Shown: one piece after another, positions 434 to 30,292 of the stretch | Layout of the letters: each line of letters starts with the position of its first letter | Numbering within the stretch: position 1 is the stretch's first letter | Source: Candidatus Saccharimonadota bacterium | GTDB lineage: Bacteria; Patescibacteriota; Saccharimonadia; Saccharimonadales; UBA4665 | Reading direction: 5' to 3' | NCBI GenBank assembly: GCA_016700375.1 | Contig: CP065016.1 | Location: 660,001-692,000, forward strand | Length of the DNA stretch: 32,000 nt | Position numbers and translations under genes: made by a program | The notes under the pieces: generated by a model | What the model was told of the DNA's origin: nothing | Seen by the model: the letters and a program-made list of their open reading frames with translations, nothing else | The model's database searches: none

Positions 434-685
434 ATGAGATATCACTGCCTGTATAAACTATCTGGGAATACCCGCTGTAACCGCTCGATACCACGCGGTT
501 ATCTTCTCTGTAAAGAGCACAGAGGTGTGCATACCGTTTTGCCGGTGGTTGAGCCGACAATATCTCAAAACCGGCTTGCTCGAGGCGTAGAAGCAATCTG
601 TGTAGCTCGTACATCAATGGCTGAACCTCACCCAAAGGGCAAGATATTCGTAAGAGATAAAATCGGCCGGTCGGTGCTGCTATGA
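434..685 (+). CDS. small Cys-containing hypothetical protein (phage-like context)
   Basis: 83-aa ORF whose TGA overlaps the ATG of the next gene (ATGA at 682-685), which suggests translational coupling. No family recognised. A 106-aa antisense ORF competes with it. Confidence 0.3.
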   Translation: MRYHCLYKLSGNTRCNRSIPRGYLLCKEHRGVHTVLPVVEPTISQNRLARGVEAICVARTSMAEPHPKGKIFVRDKIGRSVLL

Positions 686-1116
686 CAGCCTCAGGTATCG
701 GTCGGCCGCCACAATTCTCAAATGCCGCACAGTTACAGTTATTGATAGACAATTACTTTTCTTCAGCCACAAAGTCATCACCCGCAAGACCTCTAACTAT
801 AACCGGCCTTATGCTTCACTGCGGGTTTGAGAGTCGGCAGTCATTTTATGACTATGAGAAAAAACCCGAGTTTTCTTACACTATAAAAAGAGCCCGGCTT
901 ATGATTGAAAACGTTTATGAGGAACTCTTGCAGAGCGGTCGAGGAGCGGGCGCAATTTTTGCTCTTAAAAACTTCGGCTGGACGGATAAAAGCGAAGTAA
1001 GTATTGAAAGGGACTCAATAGACTATTCGAGCATGACAGATGAAGAACTTGAATCACGTCTGATAGACAGCATTAAAAGAGATTACGGCGTGACGCTTCC
1101 ACGAAAGATGCTGTAG
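682..1116 (+). CDS. terminase small subunit-like / DNA-packaging HTH protein
   Basis: GRPPQF...LIDNYF...PLTITGL...FYDYEKKPEFSYTIKRARLMIE...GAIFALKNFGWTD matches the conserved pattern of phage small terminase (gp3-type packaging) proteins as I recall it. Confidence 0.7.
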   Translation: MTASGIGRPPQFSNAAQLQLLIDNYFSSATKSSPARPLTITGLMLHCGFESRQSFYDYEKKPEFSYTIKRARLMIENVYEELLQSGRGAGAIFALKNFGWTDKSEVSIERDSIDYSSMTDEELESRLIDSIKRDYGVTLPRKML

Positions 1117-1168
1117 TTTTGGCCTTAAGAAGATATCGCTTGAACTTTTTTCATATGAGATAATAAGA

Positions 1169-2824
1169 GTGATGAATGAGCAAAAACTAACACCAGCTGA
1201 CTTATTTACTAATCTGAAGAATGCTTACCGGCAAGATGACATAGAAGAGCTAGATATAAAAACTTTGCGCTATGTGTTGTATGCCCGCCGCTCTACTACG
1301 AATGATGAGCGGCAAGAACGCTCAATCCCAGACCAAATAGCAGACTGCTACGATCGTGTGATAGTACCGAAAGAGCTGAATATAATCGGTGCTGTACGCG
1401 AAGAAAAAGGCTCGGCGAAAGAGCCGAACACTCGGCCGGCATTTCGAACTATGCTTGAAGATATCAAGTCTGGCAAGATAGACGGTATAGTCGCGTGGCA
1501 CCCCGATAGACTCGCAAGAAATATGATGGACGCAGGCGAGATTATAGACTTGCTAGACAAAGGTATATTGAAAGACATACAGTTTGCTACTTCTTCCTTT
1601 GAAAACAGTCCAACCGGCAAAATGCTGCTCGGCATATCTTTCGTGTTGTCAAAGCAATACTCTGAGCACCTGAGCGAAAATATCAAGCGTGGCAATCGGC
1701 GAATGACAGAGGACGGATTATTTCTAGGCAAGATGAAACATGGCTATCTAATATCAGATGACAGGCTTTTCCCCGATAACTGGTTTACGAATATTAAGAC
1801 AGCATTTCAGATGAGGCTAGAGGGTAGCACGCAAGAAGCCATTGTGCAGGCACTGAACAGGTCTGATTACCGGGTACGCAAAAGAGGTAAAGACCCCGAA
1901 AAATACAAATGGGATAAAGACAGTGTGTCTTCTATGCTTAAAGATCCGGTGTACGCAGGGGTGTTGAAATACGGTAATAACCTAGTGAAGCTAGAAGACC
2001 ACTATGATTTTATGCCGGTAGTCACCGTAGAAGAGTTTATGTCTATAAACAAAATCAGCGACTTAAAGTCGCCCGCACTCGTCTCTTCGATGCTTGTTAA
2101 GGAGTCACGAGATACACTAGCTGACCTCATGCGTGGTAGAGTTTATTGCGGCTTTTGCAATAAGCCGTTTACGTCATCAATCACCTCAAAACGTTCAGGC
2201 GATAACCTAACGCACTACTATTACTACCGCTGCGAGAGTGACGGGTGCGTGTTTAAGAACTCCGCCGTGCGCGCTAGTAAGATGATAGAGTTTGCCGCAA
2301 ATTACCTTGAGCAGCATTCTTTCACTACACAGAGCAATTACGACGAATACGTGACCGATAGTAAGCAATATGCTCATACTCAAAAACGCGACATCACCTC
2401 TTCCATTGCCCGCTACACGAAGATAATAAGTGATAAACAAGGCGAATACGATCGAGCAAAAAAGCTTGTAGCGCAAAAACCTGAGCTTTCAAAGCATTAT
2501 GATCTTGACGCGCTGAGCAAAGAGGTAGAGGTATTCACGCAGGAGCAGCAAGAGCTGCAATCAAAAAGAGACAGTCTGGGGGTTGCGCTGCTTACATATC
2601 AAGAATATCTTGAACTTTTCAGTCAAACAGGGGTAATACTGCGTCAATCTGGTGATATGGCGAAACTAGACGCAGTGCTGCGAAAATTCTTCTTGAACTT
2701 CACTATAAAAGCATACGGCAAAGGTTCAAAACAGAGGTGCGATATTACCTGTACGTTAAACGAACCCTTTGCAGGGTTCGTAAGAACGGGTAATTTCGAA
2801 CATGGTCGGGGTGACAGGACTTGA
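1169..2824 (+). CDS. large serine recombinase (integrase)
   Basis: N-terminal resolvase-type motif YARRSTTNDERQERSIPDQ. Central recombinase domain. Zn-ribbon-like CGFCNKPF...YYYRCES..C. Long coiled C-terminus, 551 aa. The last 22 nt overlap the 3' end of tRNA-Pro. Confidence 0.9.
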   Translation: MMNEQKLTPADLFTNLKNAYRQDDIEELDIKTLRYVLYARRSTTNDERQERSIPDQIADCYDRVIVPKELNIIGAVREEKGSAKEPNTRPAFRTMLEDIKSGKIDGIVAWHPDRLARNMMDAGEIIDLLDKGILKDIQFATSSFENSPTGKMLLGISFVLSKQYSEHLSENIKRGNRRMTEDGLFLGKMKHGYLISDDRLFPDNWFTNIKTAFQMRLEGSTQEAIVQALNRSDYRVRKRGKDPEKYKWDKDSVSSMLKDPVYAGVLKYGNNLVKLEDHYDFMPVVTVEEFMSINKISDLKSPALVSSMLVKESRDTLADLMRGRVYCGFCNKPFTSSITSKRSGDNLTHYYYYRCESDGCVFKNSAVRASKMIEFAANYLEQHSFTTQSNYDEYVTDSKQYAHTQKRDITSSIARYTKIISDKQGEYDRAKKLVAQKPELSKHYDLDALSKEVEVFTQEQQELQSKRDSLGVALLTYQEYLELFSQTGVILRQSGDMAKLDAVLRKFFLNFTIKAYGKGSKQRCDITCTLNEPFAGFVRTGNFEHGRGDRT

Positions 2825-2879
2825 ACCTGCGACCTCACGGCCCCCAGCCGTACGCGCTACCAGGCTGCGCTACACCCCG
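2803..2879 (-). tRNA. tRNA-Pro (anticodon GGG)
   Basis: Minus-strand cloverleaf by eye: CGGGGTG TA GCGC AGCCTGGTA GCGC G TACGG CTGGGGG CCGTG AGGTC GCAGG TTCAAGT CCTGT CACCCCG A CCA. Confidence 0.9.
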
Positions 2880-5831: not shown

Positions 5832-6473
5832 CTAGCTCAGCAAACCAGGCTTATCAAGTATAACTTGTTTCTTGGAAAGCAAGACGTTAGAAATAAAGCG
5901 GTCTTTTATTTGAACGCGGTACCGGAACTCGTCGAGCGAAAATACGGTGTAGCGAAGATCCTTGCCTTCTTGCTCCTCGAGGTCGGTCACATACTTTTGC
6001 AGCGCATTTCGGTTGACATTACCAACAATAAGCACATCTACCCCGCTGGTTTCGTCGCGAGTGAACTGACCCATAAGAGCAGCAATTTCTACATTTCCCA
6101 GCTGCTTCAGGGCGGCAGGCTCCTCTGGCTCCGAAGGAGCCTGCTGGACAGTTGGCTCGGGCACTGCAGCGACATCTTCGGGGAGAACTGCGGGCTTTTT
6201 TGCCGACCTTTTTGGCTTTTGCCCGCCAAAAATTTCTTGCAAAGGAGCATAATAAGCATACTTCTGGTTTACTTCGTAGTAGACTTTGTTGTTACTAGAA
6301 TCGCTGGTGATGATGCCTATATTTAGTAAATTAGCCAGCTCACGGCGCACAGAGTTTATTTGCTCATCAATCTTGCGGGTAATCTCACGCACATAAAATG
6401 ACCGGTTAGGGTTTTCATAAAAAAGATGCAGCAACTTGACGCGCGTTTTGGAACCAAATAGTTGCTCTACCAC
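5832..6473 (-). CDS. winged-helix transcriptional regulator (ArsR-like N-terminus)
   Basis: LFGSKTRVKLLHLFYENPNRSFYVREITRKIDEQINSVRRELANL is a typical wHTH. The C-terminal domain is unassigned. Confidence 0.55.
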   Translation of the reverse strand: MVEQLFGSKTRVKLLHLFYENPNRSFYVREITRKIDEQINSVRRELANLLNIGIITSDSSNNKVYYEVNQKYAYYAPLQEIFGGQKPKRSAKKPAVLPEDVAAVPEPTVQQAPSEPEEPAALKQLGNVEIAALMGQFTRDETSGVDVLIVGNVNRNALQKYVTDLEEQEGKDLRYTVFSLDEFRYRVQIKDRFISNVLLSKKQVILDKPGLLS

Positions 6474-9172: not shown

Positions 9173-10242
9173 CACGAGTTTCGCACTCCCCAATTCTTTG
9201 CTAGCCTAGAAGCATGACGTCAGTCATGCTTTTTCGTAAACAAGGAAAATAAACATGTCTCGTTCAAAATGTTCTCGTGAGCTGTACTGCTCATTCCTGG
9301 AGGTCACCTCCTCACGGTATTCTGCGCTCAGCTTGAGCGAAGTAGCCCCAGACAATGCCATGCTCTCTCACGACAGCGTCTCCCGTTGGCTAGCATCTGA
9401 AAAGATACAGCCCAAAGACCTGTGGCAAGCTGCCGCTAAGGAAGTTCGCGCCACTCCTGGCATTTTGGTCTTCGATGATGTCGTCATCGACAAAAGCCGA
9501 AGCGGCAAGATGGAGCTTGTGAACTGGCAGTATGCGGGAAGTAAGCATGACATCACCAGAGGGATTGGCGTTGTAAATGCGTTGTGGCAAGTAGATACAG
9601 AACACTACATTCCTATGGACTACCGCATCTGGAACCCGCCAGAAGACGGCAAGACTAAGAATGATCACTTCCAGGATATGCTGAGTAGCACAAGACAGAG
9701 AGGGCTACGCCCGGAGATGGTTGTTGCGGATAGCTGGTACGGCTCTCTAAAAAACCTTAAGGCAGTTCGCTCTCATGGCTGGGACTGGGTCATGGGGCTG
9801 AGGAGCAACCGGTTAGTCGGTAAGCCACATATCCAGCTCAGAGAGTTAGATATACCAGATACAGGCTTGGTGACATATCTGAAAGGCTATGGGTGGATCA
9901 GAGTCTTCCGGTTTGAGGCCAGTAACGGCCGCACGGATTATGTTGGTACAAGTCGTACTGACCTCACCCGCGAACAAGTCAAGAAATACTTCGAGCGCCG
10001 TTGGAGTGTCGAGGTACTGCATCGAGAGCTCAAACAAACCTGTGGCTTATCCCGCTGTCAGGCCAATCTTGGCCGAGCCCAAAGAAACCACATTGGGTTA
10101 GCTTTGCTTACCTGGGTACGAAAACATAAGAGAAGGCTAATTGACCAAACGACGCTATACCAACAAGATTGGGAGGTCATAAAACCAGGCATCCAGCTTG
10201 CGCTGGCTGCCCGGTTGAATGGGTGAAAGTGCGAAACTCGTG
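9173..10242 (+). mobile_element. IS element, 1070 bp, IS4-superfamily (IS701-like?) with 15-bp terminal inverted repeats and a 5-bp target duplication
   Basis: IRL cacgagtttcgcact (9173-9187) is the perfect reverse complement of IRR agtgcgaaactcgtg (10228-10242). Direct repeat CTTGC occurs at 9168-9172 and 10243-10247. Confidence 0.85.
9255..10226 (+). CDS. DDE transposase
   Basis: 323 aa. VFDDVVIDK and VVADSWYG acidic motifs. C-terminal YFERRWSVEVLHRELK fits the YREK signature of IS4-type transposases. Confidence 0.85.
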   Translation: MSRSKCSRELYCSFLEVTSSRYSALSLSEVAPDNAMLSHDSVSRWLASEKIQPKDLWQAAAKEVRATPGILVFDDVVIDKSRSGKMELVNWQYAGSKHDITRGIGVVNALWQVDTEHYIPMDYRIWNPPEDGKTKNDHFQDMLSSTRQRGLRPEMVVADSWYGSLKNLKAVRSHGWDWVMGLRSNRLVGKPHIQLRELDIPDTGLVTYLKGYGWIRVFRFEASNGRTDYVGTSRTDLTREQVKKYFERRWSVEVLHRELKQTCGLSRCQANLGRAQRNHIGLALLTWVRKHKRRLIDQTTLYQQDWEVIKPGIQLALAARLNG

Positions 10243-14384: not shown

Positions 14385-14461
14385 GGGCGATTAGCTCATT
14401 TGGCTAGAGCGCCACATTGACGTTGTGGAGGTGGTAGGTTCGAATCCTACATCGCCCACCA
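14385..14461 (+). tRNA. tRNA-Val (anticodon GAC)
   Basis: GGGCGAT TA GCTC ATTTGGCTA GAGC G CCACA TTGACGT TGTGG AGGTG GTAGG TTCGAAT CCTAC ATCGCCC A CCA. Confidence 0.9.
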
Positions 14462-14490: not shown

Positions 14491-14608
14491 ATGGTGCTGA
14501 CGAGTAGGAGAGCCCTGCATAGCGAGCGATGGTTTGGTGGAAAGGCTACTCCCGCAGGAGCTCGCTCTGGGAAGGCAGCCTTGGAAGAGACGGAGCGGCT
14601 TCTTATAC

Positions 14609-14617
14609 CGCCCACCA
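14609..14617 (+). other. duplicated tRNA-Val 3' end (CGCCCACCA)
   Basis: The 9-mer is identical to the last 9 nt of tRNA-Val and lies 148 nt downstream. It is again followed by a weak hairpin, a T-run and ATGGTGC, as after the intact gene. Confidence 0.45.
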
Positions 14618-17622: not shown

Positions 17623-17696
17623 AAATCTAATACTGTATTGTAGCAGAACTATCAGTAATCTTTATAGGTAATCGGTACGTGACTATAAACGGGTTA

Positions 17697-17718
17697 TGGT
17701 GCGGGTGGGGGGAGTCGA
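17697..17718 (-). other. orphan tRNA-Gly 3' fragment (positions 55-76 including CCA)
   Basis: Minus strand TCGACTCCCCCCACCCGCACCA is identical to the last 22 nt of the intact tRNA-Gly 133 nt upstream. Confidence 0.7.
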
Positions 17719-17814
17719 CCTTTCACCTTCGGTGAAACCCTGCTCCCATGGTCGCAGGGCAAGGGCGGCTTAGCGCCACTGGCGCTCGCGTTCGCCTCAC
17801 CCAGCCCAGAACCA

Positions 17815-17845
17815 TACAAAAAACCTTTCCTTTCGGAAAGGCCTT
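17815..17845 (-). terminator. intrinsic terminator after tRNA-Gly
   Basis: Minus strand reads CCTTTCC GAAA GGAAAGG TTTTTTGT. Confidence 0.75.
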
Positions 17846-17850
17846 TTGCC

Positions 17851-17925
17851 TGGTGCGGGTGGGGGGAGTCGAACCCCCGTCTCAGCCTTGGGAAGGCTAC
17901 ATAATAGCCGTTATACGACACCCGC
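17851..17925 (-). tRNA. tRNA-Gly (anticodon CCC)
   Basis: GCGGGTG TC GTAT AACGGCTA TTAT G TAGCC TTCCCAA GGCTG AGAC GGGGG TTCGACT CCCCC CACCCGC A CCA. Confidence 0.9.
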
Positions 17926-18138
17926 TTGCCTGTTATCATAACATAAATGGGGGTTCTACAGGAGTCGACTCACCTTCGGTGGTCACTTTCAGCGACCCCG
18001 ACGCTTCCCTATTGAAAGCGCAGCTTTCATCGAAAGGCGTCCTTGCAATGTGCCACTGGCATATTTCACCCGAAACTTCACGGCAGCAAGCCAGCTTGCT
18101 CCGGAAGATTTCCTTGCGACCCGCCACGGGCGGGTCTC

Positions 18139-18191
18139 ACCCCGTCTCAGCCTTCACGAAGGCTACATAATAGCCGTTATACGACACCCGC
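18139..18191 (-). pseudogene. truncated tRNA-Gly-like 5' fragment (positions 1 to ~53) with the anticodon replaced
   Basis: Identical to the intact tRNA-Gly except that CCC is replaced by CGTG, giving an 8-nt loop TTCGTGAA. It diverges inside the T-stem after GACGGGG. No 3' acceptor strand follows. Confidence 0.7.
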
Positions 18192-18314
18192 GTAATGAGA
18201 CAAACCTACGGTTTTTCTCATCGCTTTGCTTCTCTTTTCCCTTTAGTTAGTTTTGAAAAGCCGGAATAAATCCGTCCTTTCAAAAAACCCTTTAGCCCGG
18301 ACTTTGTCCGGGTG

Positions 18315-18358
18315 CGAAATTCCAATCCAAGGAGCGTAAGCGACTGAATGGAATTTCG
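18315..18358 (-). repeat. conserved hairpin (repeat family R2, copy 1)
   Basis: Minus strand reads CGAAATTCCA TTCAGTCGCTTACGCTCCTTGGAT TGGAATTTCG. See copy 2 at 20425-20467. Confidence 0.6.
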
Positions 18359-18441
18359 TGAGGAGGAACTGTGCGAAGCCCCACCTGACTTTTGGCCACT
18401 TGATTGCCGAAAGTCAGGTGAGGTTGTAACATATTCCGACG

Positions 18442-19131: not shown

Positions 19132-19554
19132 TCAGACCCAGGGAGAATACACCTGAAGCCCAGCAAACTGCTCAAAATCTTTGAGGTTGCGCGTAACCAA
19201 TGTCAGGTTATGGGCGAGACACTGTGCGGCCAACATGGCGTCGATAATGGGAGGGGTTCTGCCAGCCTTACTCCCTACAGCCGTCAAATCACCCCACAGT
19301 TTTGCCGCTATCACATCGAGTGAGATGATACGGCCCTCAAAAGCGTCTTGTATATCTTGTAGTTGAGTAGTCAGTTGCCGACGTTTCATGTCGTCTTCTA
19401 GAAGCATAATCCCTTTTTCTATCTCCCCGAGCACCAGGCATGATGTAAAGAGCTCTAGCTCACTCACTTGGGAAAACCAAGCGCTCACTTCGGAGTTCGG
19501 AGCCGGTTTGGCTAATTCGCTAAGGACGTTTGTATCAACCAAATATCCTATCAC
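19132..19554 (-). CDS. vapC: PIN-domain toxin (VapC/FitB type)
   Basis: MIGYLVDTNVLSE, and later LVTRNLKDF. 140 aa. Overlaps the antitoxin stop by 4 nt. Confidence 0.85.
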   Translation of the reverse strand: MIGYLVDTNVLSELAKPAPNSEVSAWFSQVSELELFTSCLVLGEIEKGIMLLEDDMKRRQLTTQLQDIQDAFEGRIISLDVIAAKLWGDLTAVGSKAGRTPPIIDAMLAAQCLAHNLTLVTRNLKDFEQFAGLQVYSPWV

Positions 19555-19805
19555 TGAACCACCCCTTCATCTGTCTGTCGACCTACCACTGCTCTGTCGC
19601 GGGCCAGGTCGAGCCCAGAAAAATCTGCCTTCTTTAGCGCCGTCTTTAGGCGGTGAGCCGGCTGAAGCATACGACGATAGTCGGCGTAACTCACTACTAC
19701 AGCTGTGTTTTTCCCGCGCCGACTTATAATTTGCGGCCCCTGACTGAGAGCTATATCTACGACGCTGCTCAGTTTGTTTTTCGCTTCTTGGAGTTGCCAT
19801 GTCAT
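19551..19805 (-). CDS. Phd/YefM-type antitoxin
   Basis: MTWQLQEAKNKLSSVVDIAL.GPQIISRRGKNTAVVVSYADY is the typical Phd/YefM N-terminus. Confidence 0.8.
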   Translation of the reverse strand: MTWQLQEAKNKLSSVVDIALSQGPQIISRRGKNTAVVVSYADYRRMLQPAHRLKTALKKADFSGLDLARDRAVVGRQTDEGVVQ

Positions 19806-19832: not shown

Positions 19833-19889
19833 CCTGTCAATAGAGATCGTAAGAGATATTTTGTGAATACCGACTTCGCCTTTCCCCCT

Positions 19890-19975
19890 GCGCCCGACCG
19901 GATGAACGCTTTGCTACTGCCCGCGTCGCATGCTCGGAGCGAGCTCCTGCGCGTGCTCCTTGTCATCGAACCGGC
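19890..19975 (-). pseudogene. tRNA-Asp 3' portion (T-arm plus acceptor 3' strand) interrupted in the T-loop by 62 nt
   Basis: Minus strand reads GCCGGTTCGA (19975-19966) + 62 nt (19965-19904) + ATCCGGTCGGGCGC (19903-19890). Deleting the 62 nt recreates GCCGGTTCGAATCCGGTCGGGCGC of the intact gene. No CCA. Confidence 0.6.
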
Positions 19976-20030
19976 AATCTACGTTCGCTGCGCTCACTAA
20001 TCGCCGGCTCAAACCGACGTGCAGACCACT

Positions 20031-20063: not shown

Positions 20064-20140
20064 TGGCGCGCCCGACCGGATTCGAACCGGCGATCTCCTC
20101 CGTGACAGGGAGGCGTGATAGGCCTCTTCACTACGGGCGC
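20064..20140 (-). tRNA. tRNA-Asp (anticodon GTC)
   Basis: GCGCCCG TA GTGA AGAGGCCTA TCAC G CCTCC CTGTCAC GGAGG AGATC GCCGG TTCGAAT CCGGT CGGGCGC G CCA. Confidence 0.9.
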
Positions 20141-20215
20141 ATACAGGTGTAATTGTACCAGATTATTTTGTTAATTAGGTCGGCCCGACTAGGACAAACG
20201 CCCTCCTTTGTCGGG

Positions 20216-20277
20216 CTCCTCCCTGCGGTACTCATCAAAAACATGCAAGCATCTTTTTGACTCCGTTCCTCGTCCGC
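20216..20277 (-). repeat. 62-nt conserved module E, copy 1 (fused to the T-loop of the truncated tRNA-Asp-like copy)
   Basis: 57/62 identical to 23488-23549. Contains an 11-bp hairpin. Confidence 0.8.
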
Positions 20278-20336
20278 CGAACCGGCGATCTCCTCCGGAT
20301 CAAACGAGGCGTGATAGGCCTCTTCACTACGGGCGC
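20278..20336 (-). pseudogene. truncated tRNA-Asp-like 5' fragment (positions 1-57) with an altered anticodon arm
   Basis: Identical to tRNA-Asp except that CCCTGTCA is replaced by CGTTTGATC (one nt longer). Identity ends after the TTCG of the T-loop, where module E begins. Confidence 0.7.
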
Positions 20337-20424
20337 TCGTCGCGGCATGGCAATGGTTTCCGCTACAGTGAAACAAGCAAAATGCTTCTTTCACTGAGCT
20401 ACAACCTCAGCCAGCCACTCCTCT

Positions 20425-20467
20425 CAAAACTCCATTCATCCGCTTCGCTCCTTGGATTGGAGTTTTG
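20425..20467 (+). repeat. conserved hairpin (repeat family R2, copy 2, inverted relative to copy 1)
   Basis: Plus strand reads CAAAACTCCA TTCATCCGCTTCGCTCCTTGGAT TGGAGTTTTG. The loop is nearly identical to copy 1. The stem differs at two positions, both compensated. Confidence 0.6.
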
Positions 20468-20592
20468 GAAATCACACTTTGCACAGAGCCGGTAAGGCAA
20501 ATATCAACCCTGGCAGTTCTTTTCCCCTGCTACGCAGTAGACAGAGCGAAACTAACAGAGGTCAGTGTACCAAGCTAGCAATAAAATTGCAA

Positions 20593-23255: not shown

Positions 23256-23330
23256 TGGTACCCCGGAAAGGAATCGAACCTATATCATCTCCTTAGGACG
23301 GAGCTACTCTATCCATTGAGCTACCGGGGC
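23256..23330 (-). tRNA. tRNA-Arg (anticodon CCT)
   Basis: GCCCCGG TA GCTC AATGGATA GAGT A GCTCC GTCCTAA GGAGA ... AGG TTCGATT CCT.. CCGGGGT A CCA. The T-stem is slightly irregular. Confidence 0.85.
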
Positions 23331-23386
23331 GTATATGTATTCTAGCGGGGTCCCCATGAAATCACCAGATTTCATGGGGTGCATTT

Positions 23387-23420
23387 GACGGAGTTATTCT
23401 ATCCGTTGAACTATCGGGAC
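23387..23420 (-). pseudogene. truncated tRNA-Arg-like 5' fragment (positions 1-34)
   Basis: The 34 nt GTCCCGATAGTTCAACGGATAGAATAACTCCGTC are identical to 23605-23572. Identity ends after the first anticodon base. A 12-bp hairpin follows (23352-23379). Confidence 0.65.
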
Positions 23421-23487
23421 ACACCATAATCTTATCATAGCACCGGTTCGCTTCCAGCTACGCCGGGATACGCGCGCTTACAGCGCA

Positions 23488-23549
23488 CTCCTCCCTGCGG
23501 TACTCGTCAAATACATGCAAGCATGTATTTGATTCCGTTCCTCGTCCGC
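23488..23549 (-). repeat. 62-nt conserved module E, copy 2
   Basis: See 20216-20277. It starts directly after the TTCG of the truncated tRNA. Confidence 0.8.
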
Positions 23550-23605
23550 CGAACCAACATCTGCTCCTTAGGACGGAGTTATTCTATCCGTTGAACTATC
23601 GGGAC
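23550..23605 (-). pseudogene. truncated tRNA-Arg(CCT)-like 5' fragment (positions 1-57)
   Basis: GTCCCGA TA GTTC AACGGATA GAAT A ACTCC GTCCTAA GGAGC AGATG TTGG TTCG, then module E. About 80% identical to the intact tRNA-Arg. No TCGGGAC 3' acceptor strand occurs anywhere nearby. TATAAT lies just upstream (about 23625). Confidence 0.7.
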
Positions 23606-28221: not shown

Positions 28222-28264
28222 ACGCCCAGTATAGCATAAGCGATATGGTAATAGACAATTATTC

Positions 28265-29427
28265 TGACCCACACTCACTTTTTTCCTCCTCCCCGTACAT
28301 GAGCCACCGGTATCGGTGGTAGCAGCGGCGTACGTAGTAGCCGTTGCATATACTCCCAGGCTTGCTTGAACCAGCTCAGTCGTTTCTTGGGATGAATCTT
28401 CTGCTGTTGTTTTGGTAGTACTTTGACCGCATAGCGCCACAGTAACCACCAACCGAGGAAGACAAACAGCAGCAAGTTACGGATGACTTGTGGTTTTCTG
28501 ACTCGTTGCCACTCCAATCGTTGCAACCACTTCACATCCTTGAAGGCTTCTTCAATTTCGAACCTTTCTGCGTAACGGTTCAGGACTTGTCTTCTGGTGA
28601 GGGCCTCTGTTCCCTCGCTCGGTAGGTTGGTCAACAAAAACCAGGGCTCCGGATCCTTCATGTTCGGATTGTAATCCGAACGAATAAGTCGGAGCTTATG
28701 TGTATGGTACGTGATGGGTAATTCCTCATGACTAATGTCATGGATGGGTTCCTTCCACCAGCTGGGATCCCAGGGAAGCTGAACGAGCTTGTCGCTCTTG
28801 GTACGAGCGATGAAGTGCACATCGTACAGGGCAAACAAAGTGAACAGTTTGTCACTAGCAAACCAGCGATCCATGACAAGTACCAGTTGCAGATCTGGTG
28901 CATTAACTTGAAGGAAATGGAACAGTCCCTCCAGCGCCACTAGAAGTGGCGCAATGAGAGCTGCTTCGCTGAGGTTCACCTGACACCAAATGGGTATAGC
29001 TCGACCCTTGCGATGCGACACCGCCAAGATGGCGATACAAAACGGGCCGAATTGAGAGTGGTCCAGAGAGCAGTACCACCGACCAGTATGCGAAGCTAAC
29101 GCTTCGCTAACCAACAATCGCTGCAAGCGCACTGGCAGTTCCTCGTCAGTAACTAACCGACGAATGCGGTTTTCTCCAGTCCAGCGATTCAGCCCAAGCT
29201 TTCGACCAGCAGCGTTGAGCGAACAGAACTCCTGAAGGGAAAACTGTTCAACTCCGAGGAAGAAGCGACGAGCCTTAGCTTTTGGGATGTATGTCGCACG
29301 CAGCCGCTTTACAGCAGTTGCCATCTTTTGTAGTGTAGTCATTAGAAAACGACCTTTCTGTTTTAGCTTTTGTAACCAAAACTGTAGGGTCGTTTTTGTT
29401 ATGTGTCAAAAAAGTGAGTGTGGGTCA
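28265..29427 (-). mobile_element. IS4-family insertion sequence, 1163 bp, 20-bp perfect terminal inverted repeats, 11-bp target duplication
   Basis: tgacccacactcactttttt at 28265-28284 is the reverse complement of 29408-29427. Direct repeat GACAATTATTC occurs at 28254-28264 and 29428-29438. Confidence 0.9.
28275..29342 (-). CDS. DDE transposase (IS4 family)
   Basis: 355 aa. LVMDRWF acidic motif. C-terminal YAERFEIEEAFKDVK fits Y-2-R-3-E-6-K. Confidence 0.85.
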   Translation of the reverse strand: MTTLQKMATAVKRLRATYIPKAKARRFFLGVEQFSLQEFCSLNAAGRKLGLNRWTGENRIRRLVTDEELPVRLQRLLVSEALASHTGRWYCSLDHSQFGPFCIAILAVSHRKGRAIPIWCQVNLSEAALIAPLLVALEGLFHFLQVNAPDLQLVLVMDRWFASDKLFTLFALYDVHFIARTKSDKLVQLPWDPSWWKEPIHDISHEELPITYHTHKLRLIRSDYNPNMKDPEPWFLLTNLPSEGTEALTRRQVLNRYAERFEIEEAFKDVKWLQRLEWQRVRKPQVIRNLLLFVFLGWWLLWRYAVKVLPKQQQKIHPKKRLSWFKQAWEYMQRLLRTPLLPPIPVAHVRGGGKK

Positions 29428-29440
29428 GACAATTATTCTT

Positions 29441-30292
29441 TCACAATAGAGAGCTGGTATACCACTCGCCGATACGGTCTGAAAAAAGTACTACCAGAAT
29501 ACAGGCTGCTAAGAGGTATGGCCCAAAAGGTATGTGCTTTTGTAGACCTGCTTTTCCCTGTTTTAGCAAAGGTATGCTGCCTAGAGTGCCCAGCATCGAT
29601 GCGAAGAAAAGCACCAGCAGCGCCTTGATTGGATTGACTGCAATGATACCGAGCGGCAAAGCCAATTTGACATCTCCCCCGCCAATCCCTTGCCCGTCCG
29701 AAATTTGATAAATAAACCAAAACAATCCGAACAATAGTATCCCACCTAGAGCAGGATCAATAAGCAGGCGCCACTCTCGGTGAAGTATACTCATTGCAGC
29801 TGCCTGCAAGATAGCAACCCCGAGTAGAGTAAAGACTAGTTTATCGGGTAGAATGTACCATTTGTAATCATATACCCCTAGTGCAACAAACAGTACGCTA
29901 CAAATGAGCGTAAAGATAAATAAAACCAAACCAATCCCATGAAGTGCAAACGGCCAGCACAAAAACAAACCAACAAATAGCAAGCCGGTGAAACATTCCA
30001 CCAGAGGATACTGGCGAGAAATAGTTTTATGGCAATACCGACATCTCCCATGTAACATCAGCCAGCTAACGAGCGGGATAAGATCTTTAGCAGCCAATAC
30101 ATGGTAACAGCGCGTACACACGCTCCTCCCGGTCCAGATTGATAAGTTTGCGTTCCGATGCCTGGCTGCACGTTTCGAATTATTCTTTCTATGGGTTGGA
30201 TTAATTTGAGCATGCAGCCTCCAAACGAGGGCATTAACAAAACTTCCGCACAATAACCCGAAAAAAAATAAAACGATAACCATTTCAATCAT
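29441..30292 (-). CDS. pilD: prepilin peptidase (A24 family)
   Basis: GSFVNALVWRL, CTRC...CRYC zinc motif, GGGDVKL. Polytopic membrane protein. Confidence 0.9.
   Translation of the reverse strand: MIEMVIVLFFFGLLCGSFVNALVWRLHAQINPTHRKNNSKRAARHRNANLSIWTGRSVCTRCYHVLAAKDLIPLVSWLMLHGRCRYCHKTISRQYPLVECFTGLLFVGLFLCWPFALHGIGLVLFIFTLICSVLFVALGVYDYKWYILPDKLVFTLLGVAILQAAAMSILHREWRLLIDPALGGILLFGLFWFIYQISDGQGIGGGDVKLALPLGIIAVNPIKALLVLFFASMLGTLGSIPLLKQGKAGLQKHIPFGPYLLAACILVVLFSDRIGEWYTSSLL

What the first reader, a model, noticed from the sequence alone, without database searches (positions are those of the whole stretch)
17694..18191. Intact tRNA-Gly(CCC) nested between a 5' fragment and a 3' fragment of an almost identical tRNA, with breakpoints in the T-arm
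Reading the minus strand, the order is as follows.
- 18191-18139: a 53-nt copy of tRNA-Gly positions 1-53. It is identical to the intact gene except that the anticodon CCC is replaced by CGTG, giving an 8-nt loop.
- 18138-17926: a 213-nt ORF-free, hairpin-dense spacer (X1).
- 17925-17851: the intact tRNA, followed by its own terminator.
- 17814-17719: a ~96-nt spacer (X2).
- 17718-17697: a 22-nt exact copy of tRNA positions 55-76 including CCA.

X1 and X2 are related. Both contain a GCCAGTGGC hairpin whose stem differs while keeping pairing (TGCC/GGCA versus AGCGCC/GGCGCT). Both end with CACCGAAGGTGA-(1-3 nt)-GTCGACTCC.

The divergence between the truncated copy and the intact gene is confined to the anticodon. 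Random decay of a pseudogene would not be expected to look like that.
Basis: seen in the sequence. Interest (0 to 1): 0.8.

Follow-up and report, generated by a model that had tools for sequence, protein, structure and literature searches.

The report
Dead tRNA copies flanking live tRNA-Gly
An intact glycine tRNA gene of a Saccharibacteria (CPR) bacterium sits between two dead partial copies of itself, each joined at the T-loop to a small hairpin-rich repeat, and the same odd layout recurs at the aspartate, arginine and valine tRNA genes nearby, pointing to an undescribed small element that targets tRNA T-loops rather than to a working split tRNA.

Summary
On the minus strand lie a 52-nt copy of tRNA-Gly positions 1-52 with an 8-nt anticodon loop, X1 (214 nt), the intact tRNA-Gly(CCC), a terminator hairpin, X2, and an exact 22-nt copy of the tRNA's 3' end.

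It is not an assembly artefact. The layout appears in several independent assemblies and in a second species (L106).

It is not a working nested or split tRNA:
- The 5' copy plus X1 is present or absent among strains, with identical flanks.
- One strain carries uncompensated acceptor-stem substitutions.
- Another genome joins X2 to a tRNA-Ser 3' end.
- A third genome keeps only a decayed remnant.

The key new result is that the same architecture recurs in this window at tRNA-Asp, tRNA-Arg and tRNA-Val. The hairpin-rich inserts are related, and the Asp and Arg copies are 93% identical over 68 nt.

Best reading (confidence 0.45): the flanks are remains of tRNA-Gly copies interrupted in the T-loop by a dispersed, non-autonomous "X" element, standing next to a functional copy.

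Unexplained:
- The X hairpins covary.
- X2 is far less polymorphic than synonymous sites.
- The displaced 5' copies repeatedly have their 7-nt anticodon loop replaced by 8 unrelated nucleotides.

No Rfam family matches.

The parts
18140..18191 (-). 5' pseudo-copy of tRNA-Gly (positions 1-52). The anticodon loop TTCCCAA is replaced by the 8-nt TTCGTGAA.
   Evidence: (D1, D4). L106 has TTCCGGAG at the same place.
17926..18139 (-). X1, a hairpin-rich insert joined to the T-stem. Sub-features: Pa 18119-18135; Pb 18072-18112; an extra second module 17997-18068 that is absent from L107, L119 and L121; Pc' 17981-17997; Pc 17971-17981; a T-loop-like GTCGACTCC plus tail 17948-17969; and a spacer 17926-17947 ahead of the live gene.
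   Evidence: No Rfam match at E<=10.
17851..17925 (-). Intact tRNA-Gly(CCC), the functional gene.
   Evidence: ARAGORN. Rfam tRNA 58.4 bits. Invariant among the window-species strain contigs aligned; also identical in L106, and differing only at one D-loop C/T site in L121.
17812..17850 (-). Terminator-type hairpin with a U-run. Its sequence differs in L106, and there are compensatory changes among strains.
   Evidence: Only terminator-like Rfam matches.
17719..17811 (-). X2, made of a leader (17788-17811, containing GGCTG..GGGT|GAG and GCGAACG), Pa 17771-17787, Pb 17738-17759 and Pc 17723-17735.
   Evidence: 4 of 86 sites are variable, against 34 of 121 third-codon sites in the next gene.
17697..17718 (-). 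3' pseudo-copy, an exact copy of tRNA-Gly from T55 to CCA.
   Evidence: (D3). In L120 it is replaced by TCGAATCCCTCTCTCTCCGCCA, which I read as a tRNA-Ser-type 3' end from its close match to the E. coli tRNA-Ser(CGA) 3' end recalled from memory. L121 has a different flank directly after the CCA.
18192..18441 (-). Context: "spacer A", a separate conserved structured element between tRNA-Thr and the 5' pseudo-copy.
   Evidence: 80% identity to L106. 15 of 41 predicted pairs show compensatory changes.
20141..20336 (-). Same architecture at tRNA-Asp. The 5' pseudo-copy is 20278-20336 (loop CCTGTCA replaced by GTTTGATC; it ends at GGTTCG of the T-loop). X1(Asp) is 20141-20277, directly upstream of the intact tRNA-Asp at 20064-20140.
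   Evidence: (D4). L001 and L101 lack it, with an identical flank.
19889..20025 (-). Unit 3 (Asp), made of a leader, then AGATTGCCGGTTCGA, then a ~66-nt insert, then ATCCGGTCGGGCGCA. This is the 3' third of tRNA-Asp with an insert inside its T-loop.
23381..23605 (-). Same at tRNA-Arg. Diverged copy A is 23550-23605 and ends at GGTTCG. The X element is 23470-23549. The 5' fragment copy B is 23381-23420 and breaks in the anticodon loop. All lie upstream of the intact tRNA-Arg at 23256-23330.
   Evidence: (D1; D2 shows 93% identity over 68 nt to X1(Asp)).
14495..14617 (+). Unit 3 (Val), a hairpin-rich segment that ends in CGCCCACCA (the 3' end of tRNA-Val, 14385-14461) and is followed by a second terminator.
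   Evidence: (I3).

Best explanation
The locus holds one working tRNA-Gly(CCC) gene flanked by the wreckage of two further tRNA-Gly copies. Each of those copies was interrupted in its T-loop by a member of a small (about 70-200 nt), hairpin-rich, non-coding repeat family that I call X. This family is dispersed over the tRNA loci of this Saccharibacteria lineage.

- **Upstream copy:** it keeps its 5' part (positions 1-52 plus T54), then X1, then a degenerate T-loop and 3' remnant.
- **Downstream copy:** it has lost its 5' part and keeps X2 plus the exact 3' end.
- **Live gene:** it has its own terminator and supplies the function.

X encodes nothing. I therefore infer that it is a non-autonomous element that is inserted or recombined at the universally conserved T-loop by a factor acting in trans. 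I also infer that an insertion is tolerated, or rescued, only where an intact copy stands next to it, whether through tandem duplication or Campbell-type insertion-duplication. Homologous exchange between the repeated tRNA parts then keeps the fragments looking fresh. That same exchange deletes the 5' copy plus X1 in some strains.

Shown:
- the anatomy;
- recurrence at four tRNA loci;
- presence/absence polymorphism;
- chimeric and decayed variants.

Inferred:
- the mobility of X;
- the catalyst;
- the order of events.
For: 1. **The pieces are not a working pair.** L007 and L101 are exact empty sites for the 5' copy plus X1. L119 has uncompensated acceptor changes. L120 has X2 plus a tRNA-Ser 3' end. 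L117 has a decayed remnant.
2. **X sits inside T-loops with cognate tRNA sequence on both sides.**
   - L108 has a whole tRNA-Asp pseudo-copy: 5' part, insert, then ATCCGGTCGGGCCCGAC.
   - Unit 3 (Asp) is AGATTGCCGGTTCGA | insert | ATCCGGTCGGGCGC.
   - L108 Unit 3 (Val) is CGATAGGTGCG | insert | ATCCTATATCGCCCAC.
3. **The pattern recurs in one 32-kb window** at Gly, Asp, Arg and Val.
4. **X is a dispersed family.**
   - The copies at Asp and Arg are 93% identical over 68 nt and are both joined to GGTTCG (D2).
   - Units at Gly, Asp and Val share the motifs GTGAGCG.AGCGAACG and a hairpin capped by CUUG.
   - A tRNA-Gly whose back-translated anticodon arm reads UCC is followed by the same terminator and X2 (P0128).
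5. **Exchange with the live gene occurs.** All four C/T combinations exist between fragment and gene, and both spacer types occur with and without Unit 1.
6. **Nothing in X1 or X2 matches a known RNA family.** There is no plausible coding gene: the only ORFs over this stretch (63, 81 and 140 aa) run through the tRNA sequence itself.
Against: - No transposase, integrase or TnpA/TnpB lies in or beside the inserts. The window holds only a Xer-type recombinase 6 kb away, a prophage serine recombinase at tRNA-Pro and two DDE transposases.
- The insertion point is not fixed. It falls after T54 in Gly and after G57 in Asp and Arg.
- No terminal inverted repeats or regular target duplications were found.
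- No free or unoccupied copy of X was found in viral, metagenome or genome scans.
- The X hairpins covary, and X2 plus the 3' fragment is much less polymorphic than synonymous sites (4/86 against 34/121, p = 8e-6). That looks like selection, although a recent spread of the cassette would give the same pattern.
- Four independent replacements of the anticodon loop by 8 unrelated nucleotides (Gly in the window, Gly in L106, Asp in the window, Asp in L108) are not explained.
Confidence: 0.45

Rival explanations
1. These are scars of site-specific integration. Miniature integrative elements, or attP-sized relics of larger ones, recombined with the tRNA at a T-loop crossover in the classical Campbell way. 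An element that carries the tRNA 3' part leaves the 22-nt direct repeat downstream. One that carries the 5' part leaves the 52-nt repeat upstream. X1 and X2 would be the att arms.
For: - The 22-nt repeat starts in the T-loop and runs to CCA, which is the textbook att signature. Partial plus complete tRNA copies at the ends of integrated elements are well documented (10.1101/2022.07.05.498093).
- The breakpoints fall in the T-loop and the anticodon loop (Arg copy B). From memory (Williams 2002), these are the usual integrase sublocations.
- X2 is joined to a different tRNA 3' end in L120.
- A variable flank follows directly after the CCA in L121.
- There are precise empty sites.
Against: - The "elements" are only 133-214 bp and carry no integrase.
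- Units at Asp and Val carry the cognate T-stem 5' strand as well as the 3' strand around the insert. An att arm would not be expected to do that.
- Near-identical X occurs with cognate halves of different tRNAs, which a fixed attP cannot produce.
- Hairpin covariation is not a property of att arms.
- No attP-bearing phage was found.
Confidence: 0.22
2. Unit 3 (X2 plus the tRNA 3' end), and perhaps Unit 1, are functional small RNAs. They would be tRNA-end mimics with three hairpins, a T-loop and an ACCA end. One copy would be kept next to each parent tRNA. Possible roles are as a decoy, sponge or regulator for an enzyme that recognises the acceptor/T-arm.
For: - Covariation in Pa, Pb and Pc, with G-U pairs but no A-C pairs, so the tRNA-sense strand is the folded one.
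- Low polymorphism.
- The central 59 nt of X2 is 95-97% identical between species whose spacer A is only 80% identical.
- Units at Asp and Val end in the cognate CCA end followed by their own terminator.
- RNAalifold pairs the leader with the 3' end.
Against: - X2 lies behind a strong terminator and no convincing promoter was found.
- Leader-to-3'-end pairing is not maintained in L106 or L120.
- The unit is lost or decayed in close relatives: L104, L108, L110, L112 and L115 have none, and L117 keeps a remnant.
- Common strain alleles weaken Pc.
- The length of the 3' copy varies from 8 to 22 nt among loci.
Confidence: 0.15
3. This is purely local mutation. Tandem duplication of the tRNA transcription unit was followed by slippage or template switching at the T-arm palindrome. 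Gene conversion from the live gene followed. No mobile element is involved.
For: - X contains T-arm-like pieces and repeats of the junction. GACGGGGT occurs twice in L106 X1. TCGACT and GTCGAAC motifs are present. There is a T-arm-like hairpin in the Asp leader.
- The window's X1 is the L107 X1 plus a second module.
- Quasi-palindrome correction can mimic compensatory change (from general knowledge).
Against: - The 93% identical X at Asp and Arg, and the motifs shared among the Gly, Asp and Val units, need transfer between loci.
- The tail of Unit 1 shows no significant similarity to the flank of Unit 3 (p = 0.59).
Confidence: 0.12
4. This is a working nested or split tRNA. The outer halves pair, or are spliced, to give a tRNA with an 8-nt anticodon loop that reads four bases.
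For: When joined in silico, the halves give a cloverleaf that ARAGORN calls tRNA-?(cgtg) or (ccgg). The MFE fold of the 506-nt region pairs the outer acceptor strands.
Against: - The loops differ between species (CGUG against CCGG), so no decoding function is conserved.
- Unit 1 is absent in many strains.
- L119 breaks the acceptor pairing.
- By eye (no tool run), the start of X1 is not complementary to the end of X2, so I saw no complementary trailer/leader and no obvious bulge-helix-bulge.
- A terminator lies between the halves.
- The Asp 5' copy has no matching complete 3' partner.
Confidence: 0.03

Closest known systems
Partial tRNA gene copies left by integrative elements (prophages, ICEs, genomic islands) at tRNA genes
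   Same: [quoted passage not shown] The repeat starts in the T-loop and runs to the end of the gene. Empty sites exist in related strains (10.1101/2022.07.05.498093).
   Different: - The DNA between the repeats is 133-214 bp, not 9-120 kb, and carries no integrase.
- Both a 5' and a 3' partial copy flank one gene.
- The inserts are related hairpin-rich repeats found at several different tRNAs with cognate halves.
Group I introns in the T-loop of tmRNA genes and in bacterial tRNA anticodon loops
   Same: An intervening sequence sits inside the T-loop of a tRNA-like gene (Williams preprint 10.1101/2020.01.27.920355). At the Gly copies the 5' junction follows a U and the insert ends in G.
   Different: - No Intron_gpI (or any other) Rfam match, even at E<=10 on short stretches.
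- The inserts are 70-200 nt, smaller than the group I introns I know of (about 200 nt or more, from memory).
- The Asp and Arg junctions follow G.
- The interrupted copies lack one half, so splicing could not yield a tRNA.
Split and tri-split tRNA genes of Archaea (Nanoarchaeum, Caldivirga) and non-canonical BHB introns in T-loops (from memory)
   Same: The tRNA is found in pieces, with breakpoints in loops including the T-loop.
   Different: - The organism is a bacterium.
- I saw no complementary leader/trailer (checked by eye only).
- An intact gene for the same tRNA is present.
- The halves are dispensable and decaying.
Miniature non-autonomous elements with subterminal hairpins (IS200/IS605-derived PATEs, REP/RAYT elements; from memory)
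   Same: - Small size and no coding capacity.
- Hairpins near both ends, on one strand only.
- No target-site duplication and no inverted terminal repeats.
- Multiple related copies.
   Different: - No conserved 4-5-nt target next to the left end (GGGGT in Gly against GGTTCG in Asp and Arg).
- No TnpA, TnpB or RAYT gene in the window.
- Exclusive association with tRNA loops.

Membership tests
tRNA att-site duplication by an integrative element | A direct repeat identical to the tRNA end, starting in the T-loop or anticodon loop. | tested here: met
   There is an exact 22-nt repeat from T55 to CCA and a 52-nt repeat of positions 1-52.
tRNA att-site duplication by an integrative element | An integrated element with an integrase (or its remains) lies between the complete and the partial copy. 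| tested here: not met
   Only 133 and 214 bp lie between the copies. No recombinase-sized gene fits there, and the only ORFs (63-140 aa) run through the tRNA sequence itself. The nearest recombinases are unrelated in position.
tRNA att-site duplication by an integrative element | An empty site exists in related genomes. | tested here: met
   L007 and L101 lack the 5' copy plus X1 with identical flanks. L001 and L101 lack the Asp equivalent. No same-species empty site was seen for X2 plus the 3' copy.
Split tRNA gene (archaeal type) | The halves are kept complementary, and leader/trailer pairing forms a bulge-helix-bulge. | tested here: not met
   L119 has acceptor substitutions without compensation. 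By eye, the start of X1 is not complementary to the end of X2. The partner is absent in many strains.
Group I intron in a tRNA or tmRNA | A group I catalytic core detectable with a covariance model. | tested here: not met
   No Intron_gpI match at E<=10 in the 270-nt, 166-nt, 561-nt and 1301-nt scans.
IS200/IS605-type miniature element | A fixed short target 5' of the left end, with a transposase of the family in the genome. | tested here: inconclusive
   The junctions differ between loci. No TnpA or TnpB lies in the 32-kb window. The rest of the genome was not available.
Any curated RNA family (Rfam 15) | A match to a covariance model. | tested here: not met
   Only tRNA, plus terminator-like chance matches.

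The most novel reading that the evidence does not exclude
X is a previously undescribed family of tiny, non-coding elements of Saccharibacteria that home to the T-loops of tRNA genes. They persist because each hit is accompanied by, or rescued through, a duplicated intact gene. The displaced tRNA copies are then disarmed by replacement of the anticodon loop. Alternatively, the X plus tRNA-end units are a new class of tRNA-end-mimicking small RNAs kept beside their parent tRNAs.
Probability: 0.3. Interest if true: 0.75.

Novelty: new variant of a known kind. Interest (0 to 1): 0.58.

Why it matters
Partial tRNA copies are normally read as the footprints of large integrated islands. Here the same footprints surround inserts of only 130-270 bp. 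These inserts carry no genes. They recur at four of the six tRNA genes in 32 kb of a streamlined CPR genome, share sequence between loci and keep their hairpins by compensatory change.

If X is mobile, it would be a new kind of minimal element that exploits the one sequence shared by all tRNA genes. It would also be a driver of tRNA-gene turnover and of rearrangement: the Thr-Gly cassette is inverted in related species. If the units are expressed, they would be a new family of tRNA mimics in bacteria whose biology is barely known.

There is also a practical consequence. Such fragments can mislead tRNA annotation and metagenome assembly in Saccharibacteria.

Tried and rejected
- **Known RNA families.** Rfam showed only tRNAs, at gathering and at E<=10, on the whole window and on five sub-stretches including L106. 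A 15-bit tmRNA_permuted match (E=1.3) and a resemblance of CGCCGAAGG / GGAGCAAGC to glycine-riboswitch motifs (recalled from memory) led nowhere, because no Glycine model hit appeared.
- **Collection scans for the X end motif.**
  - The genome contigs pattern was too loose and returned 90 chance hits in GC-rich coding DNA.
  - Metagenome contigs gave only same-species contigs.
  - Three viral-contig scans gave nothing.
  - BLAST against phages and plasmids hit only tRNA-Gly genes.
- **Tandem duplication including the downstream flank.** The tail of Unit 1 is not significantly similar to the flank of Unit 3.
- **Integron-like attC idea.** The nearby tyrosine recombinase is Xer-type, not IntI. 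X2 does not fold as one long hairpin.
- **Outer halves as a quadruplet-decoding tRNA.** ARAGORN accepts the joined sequence, but comparative data reject function.
- **Protein-space searches with spurious ORFs across the region.** The antisense ORF found L119, L120, L121, P0128 and P0158. The sense-frame query found nothing.
- **MscL look-up.** It gave only a 1-kb contig.
- **L107.** Its flanks match L106 and its cassette matches the window. It may be a recombinant or an assembly chimera at tRNA-Thr, since coverage is about 1.4x. It was therefore used only as a sequence variant of X1.

Full report
**1. The observation**

Read on the minus strand, the window contains the following features in order:
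- tRNA-Thr(CGT), 18517-18442;
- a 250-nt spacer;
- a 52-nt copy of tRNA-Gly positions 1-52, 18191-18140;
- X1, 18139-17926;
- the intact tRNA-Gly(CCC), 17925-17851;
- a terminator-type hairpin, 17850-17812;
- X2, 17811-17719;
- an exact 22-nt copy of the tRNA from T55 to CCA, 17718-17697.

The 5' copy is identical to the gene except that the loop TTCCCAA is replaced by TTCGTGAA. The repeats are far beyond chance. Rfam and ARAGORN call only the intact gene. The host is a Candidatus Saccharibacteria chromosome, judged from ThrRS, MscL, a PIN toxin, type IV pilus genes and the names that sources give to close homologues.

**2. It is real and conserved, but dispensable**

Contigs carrying the identical downstream 119-aa protein fall into three groups:
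- L007 and L101 have the same spacer running directly into the intact gene. They are exact empty sites for the 5' copy plus X1.
- L001 and L002 have a different 113-nt spacer.
- All of them keep the terminator, X2 and the 22-nt copy.

L106 is a MAG whose glycosyltransferase is 85% identical to the window's. It has the full architecture with diverged parts: an 8-nt loop TTCCGGAG, a shorter X1, a different terminator and a similar X2.

L119, L121 and a protein cluster seen on 10 contigs carry a shorter X1, with either spacer type. More distant relatives (L104, L108, L110, L112, L115) have only the plain genes. L117 keeps a decayed remnant of the start of X2.

**3. Why it is not a working split tRNA**

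- Unit 1 is absent in many strains.
- L119 has GCGTGTA in place of GCGGGTG in the acceptor strand, with no compensating change in the 3' copy.
- In L120, X2 is followed by TCGAATCCCTCTCTCTCCGCCA. I read this as a tRNA-Ser-type 3' end from its close match to the E. coli tRNA-Ser(CGA) 3' end, recalled from memory.
- The 8-nt loops differ between species.
- A complete gene and a terminator lie between the halves.

Joined in silico, the halves do make a cloverleaf. Nothing comparative supports its use.

The freshness of the 5' copy is explained by exchange with the neighbouring gene. All four combinations of a C/T site in fragment and gene occur among strains.

**4. What X looks like**

All copies have three hairpins:
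- Pa, with a ..GCC-AGU-GGC.. core;
- Pb, which is variable;
- Pc, with ..CC-GAA-GG.., lying just before a T-loop half-site.

The arms change while pairing is kept. Across the variants there are 90 Watson-Crick, 4 G-U, 0 A-C and 2 other pairs. One Pb pair is U-A, G-C or A-U in three genomes. The G-U/A-C asymmetry says that the tRNA-sense strand is the one that folds.

X2 plus the 3' copy is variable at 4 of 86 sites among strains. The next gene is variable at 34 of 121 third-codon sites (p = 8e-6). This could be selection, or it could be recent spread of the cassette.

No Rfam family matches.

**5. The decisive finding: the pattern recurs**

Searching the ends of every tRNA in the window, and then all repeats, showed the same layout elsewhere.

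*tRNA-Asp*:
- A 59-nt 5' copy lies at 20336-20278. It is exact except that the loop CCTGTCA is replaced by GTTTGATC, and it ends at GGTTCG.
- X1(Asp) follows, then the intact gene and a terminator.
- Downstream is a unit reading AGATTGCCGGTTCGA, then a ~66-nt insert, then ATCCGGTCGGGCGCA. This is the 3' third of tRNA-Asp with an insert inside its T-loop.
- L001 and L101 lack the Asp 5' copy, with an identical flank.

*tRNA-Arg*:
- A diverged copy ending in GGTTCG is followed by an X that is 93% identical over 68 nt to X1(Asp).
- A second 5' fragment is broken in the anticodon loop.

*tRNA-Val*:
- The gene is followed by a terminator, a 123-nt hairpin-rich unit ending in CGCCCACCA, and another terminator.

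*Relatives*:
- L108 has a whole tRNA-Asp pseudo-copy with a T-loop insert.
- L108 also has a tRNA-Val 5' fragment broken in the D-loop and a Val unit ending in ATCCTATATCGCCCAC.
- L117 and L101 have tandem units.

The units at Gly, Asp and Val share GTGAGCG.AGCGAACG and a hairpin capped by CUUG. One protein-space hit back-translates to a tRNA-Gly with a UCC-type anticodon arm, followed by the same terminator and X2.

**6. Interpretation**

The Gly locus is best described as [tRNA-Gly::X1, with a decayed 3' part] - [tRNA-Gly] - [5'-deleted tRNA-Gly::X2]. X is a dispersed, non-coding, hairpin-rich family that ends up inside tRNA T-loops.

I infer that X is a non-autonomous mobile or recombining element acting at the T-loop, which from general knowledge is the most conserved stretch shared by tRNA genes. 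I also infer that interrupted copies survive only beside an intact copy, and that recombination among the repeated parts creates the polymorphism.

The classical integrase-scar reading explains the 22-nt repeat and the empty sites. It does not explain cognate T-stem strands on both sides of the inserts, nor near-identical X with different cognate tRNA halves. Partial tRNA copies from integration are well known (10.1101/2022.07.05.498093), and T-loop introns are known in tmRNA genes (10.1101/2020.01.27.920355). Neither fits fully.

**7. What remains unexplained**

- The catalyst and the mode of movement.
- The apparent constraint on X2.
- Why four independent displaced 5' copies (Gly in the window, Gly in L106, Asp in the window, Asp in L108) have the 7-nt anticodon loop replaced by 8 unrelated nucleotides while the stems stay intact. 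Possible reasons include avoiding titration of anticodon-reading enzymes or breaking homology. Both are speculation.

**8. Verdict**

- The functional nested or split tRNA reading is rejected.
- The locus is one member of a recurrent, apparently undescribed pattern at the tRNA genes of this CPR lineage.
- I rate it a new variant of a known kind (tRNA-gene partial duplications associated with mobile DNA), with moderate-to-high interest.

Noticed in passing
window 18192-18441 (-); related copies near 20420-20480 (inverted) and in L106, L110, L117, L120: "Spacer A" between tRNA-Thr and tRNA-Gly is a conserved structured element. It is 80% identical to L106, and 15 of 41 predicted pairs show compensatory changes. 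No Rfam match was found. In L001, L002 and L121 an unrelated 113-nt spacer takes its place. In L117 it is inverted relative to the tRNAs, and a related piece lies upstream of tRNA-Asp.
   Followed up: partly
L104-L107, L112-L116 compared with window, L108-L111, L117: The tRNA-Thr/tRNA-Gly cassette lies in opposite orientation between the MscL gene and the 119-aa gene in different related species. This indicates repeated inversion or replacement of the cassette.
   Followed up: partly
window 682-2879: A terminase small-subunit-like gene (682-1116) is followed by a large serine recombinase (1169-2824). The 3' end of the recombinase ORF overlaps the 3' end of tRNA-Pro (2803-2879, minus strand). 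This looks like the end of a prophage integrated at tRNA-Pro. No repeat of the tRNA-Pro end lies within the window.
   Followed up: partly
window 19132-19805 (-): A PIN-domain (VapC-like) toxin and an upstream small antitoxin-like ORF sit between the tRNA-Gly and tRNA-Asp loci. VapC toxins are known to cut tRNAs (from memory). No link to the pseudo-copies was tested.
   Followed up: no
L121 ~480-625 (minus-strand reading), directly after the 3' fragment's CCA: About 147 nt of unrelated sequence replaces the 27 nt that follow the 22-nt fragment in the window. The end of the fragment is therefore itself a junction of variable DNA.
   Followed up: no
window 9255-10226 (+) and 28275-29342 (-): There are two DDE (IS4-like) transposase genes. 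The second is flanked by 41-nt inverted repeats (28244-28284 and 29408-29448) inside the type IV pilus gene cluster.
   Followed up: no
window 18156-18230 (+), antisense to the end of spacer A: A 24-codon ORF (MRQTYGFSHRF...) keeps its length in L106 and its first ~17 residues in L117. This may simply reflect conservation of the RNA structure on the other strand.
   Followed up: no
L101 ~6060-6320: An extra Asp-type Unit 3 lies away from tRNA-Asp. It is preceded only by ...GGACCGCCA and a terminator, which suggests that these units also occur without an adjacent intact tRNA.
   Followed up: no
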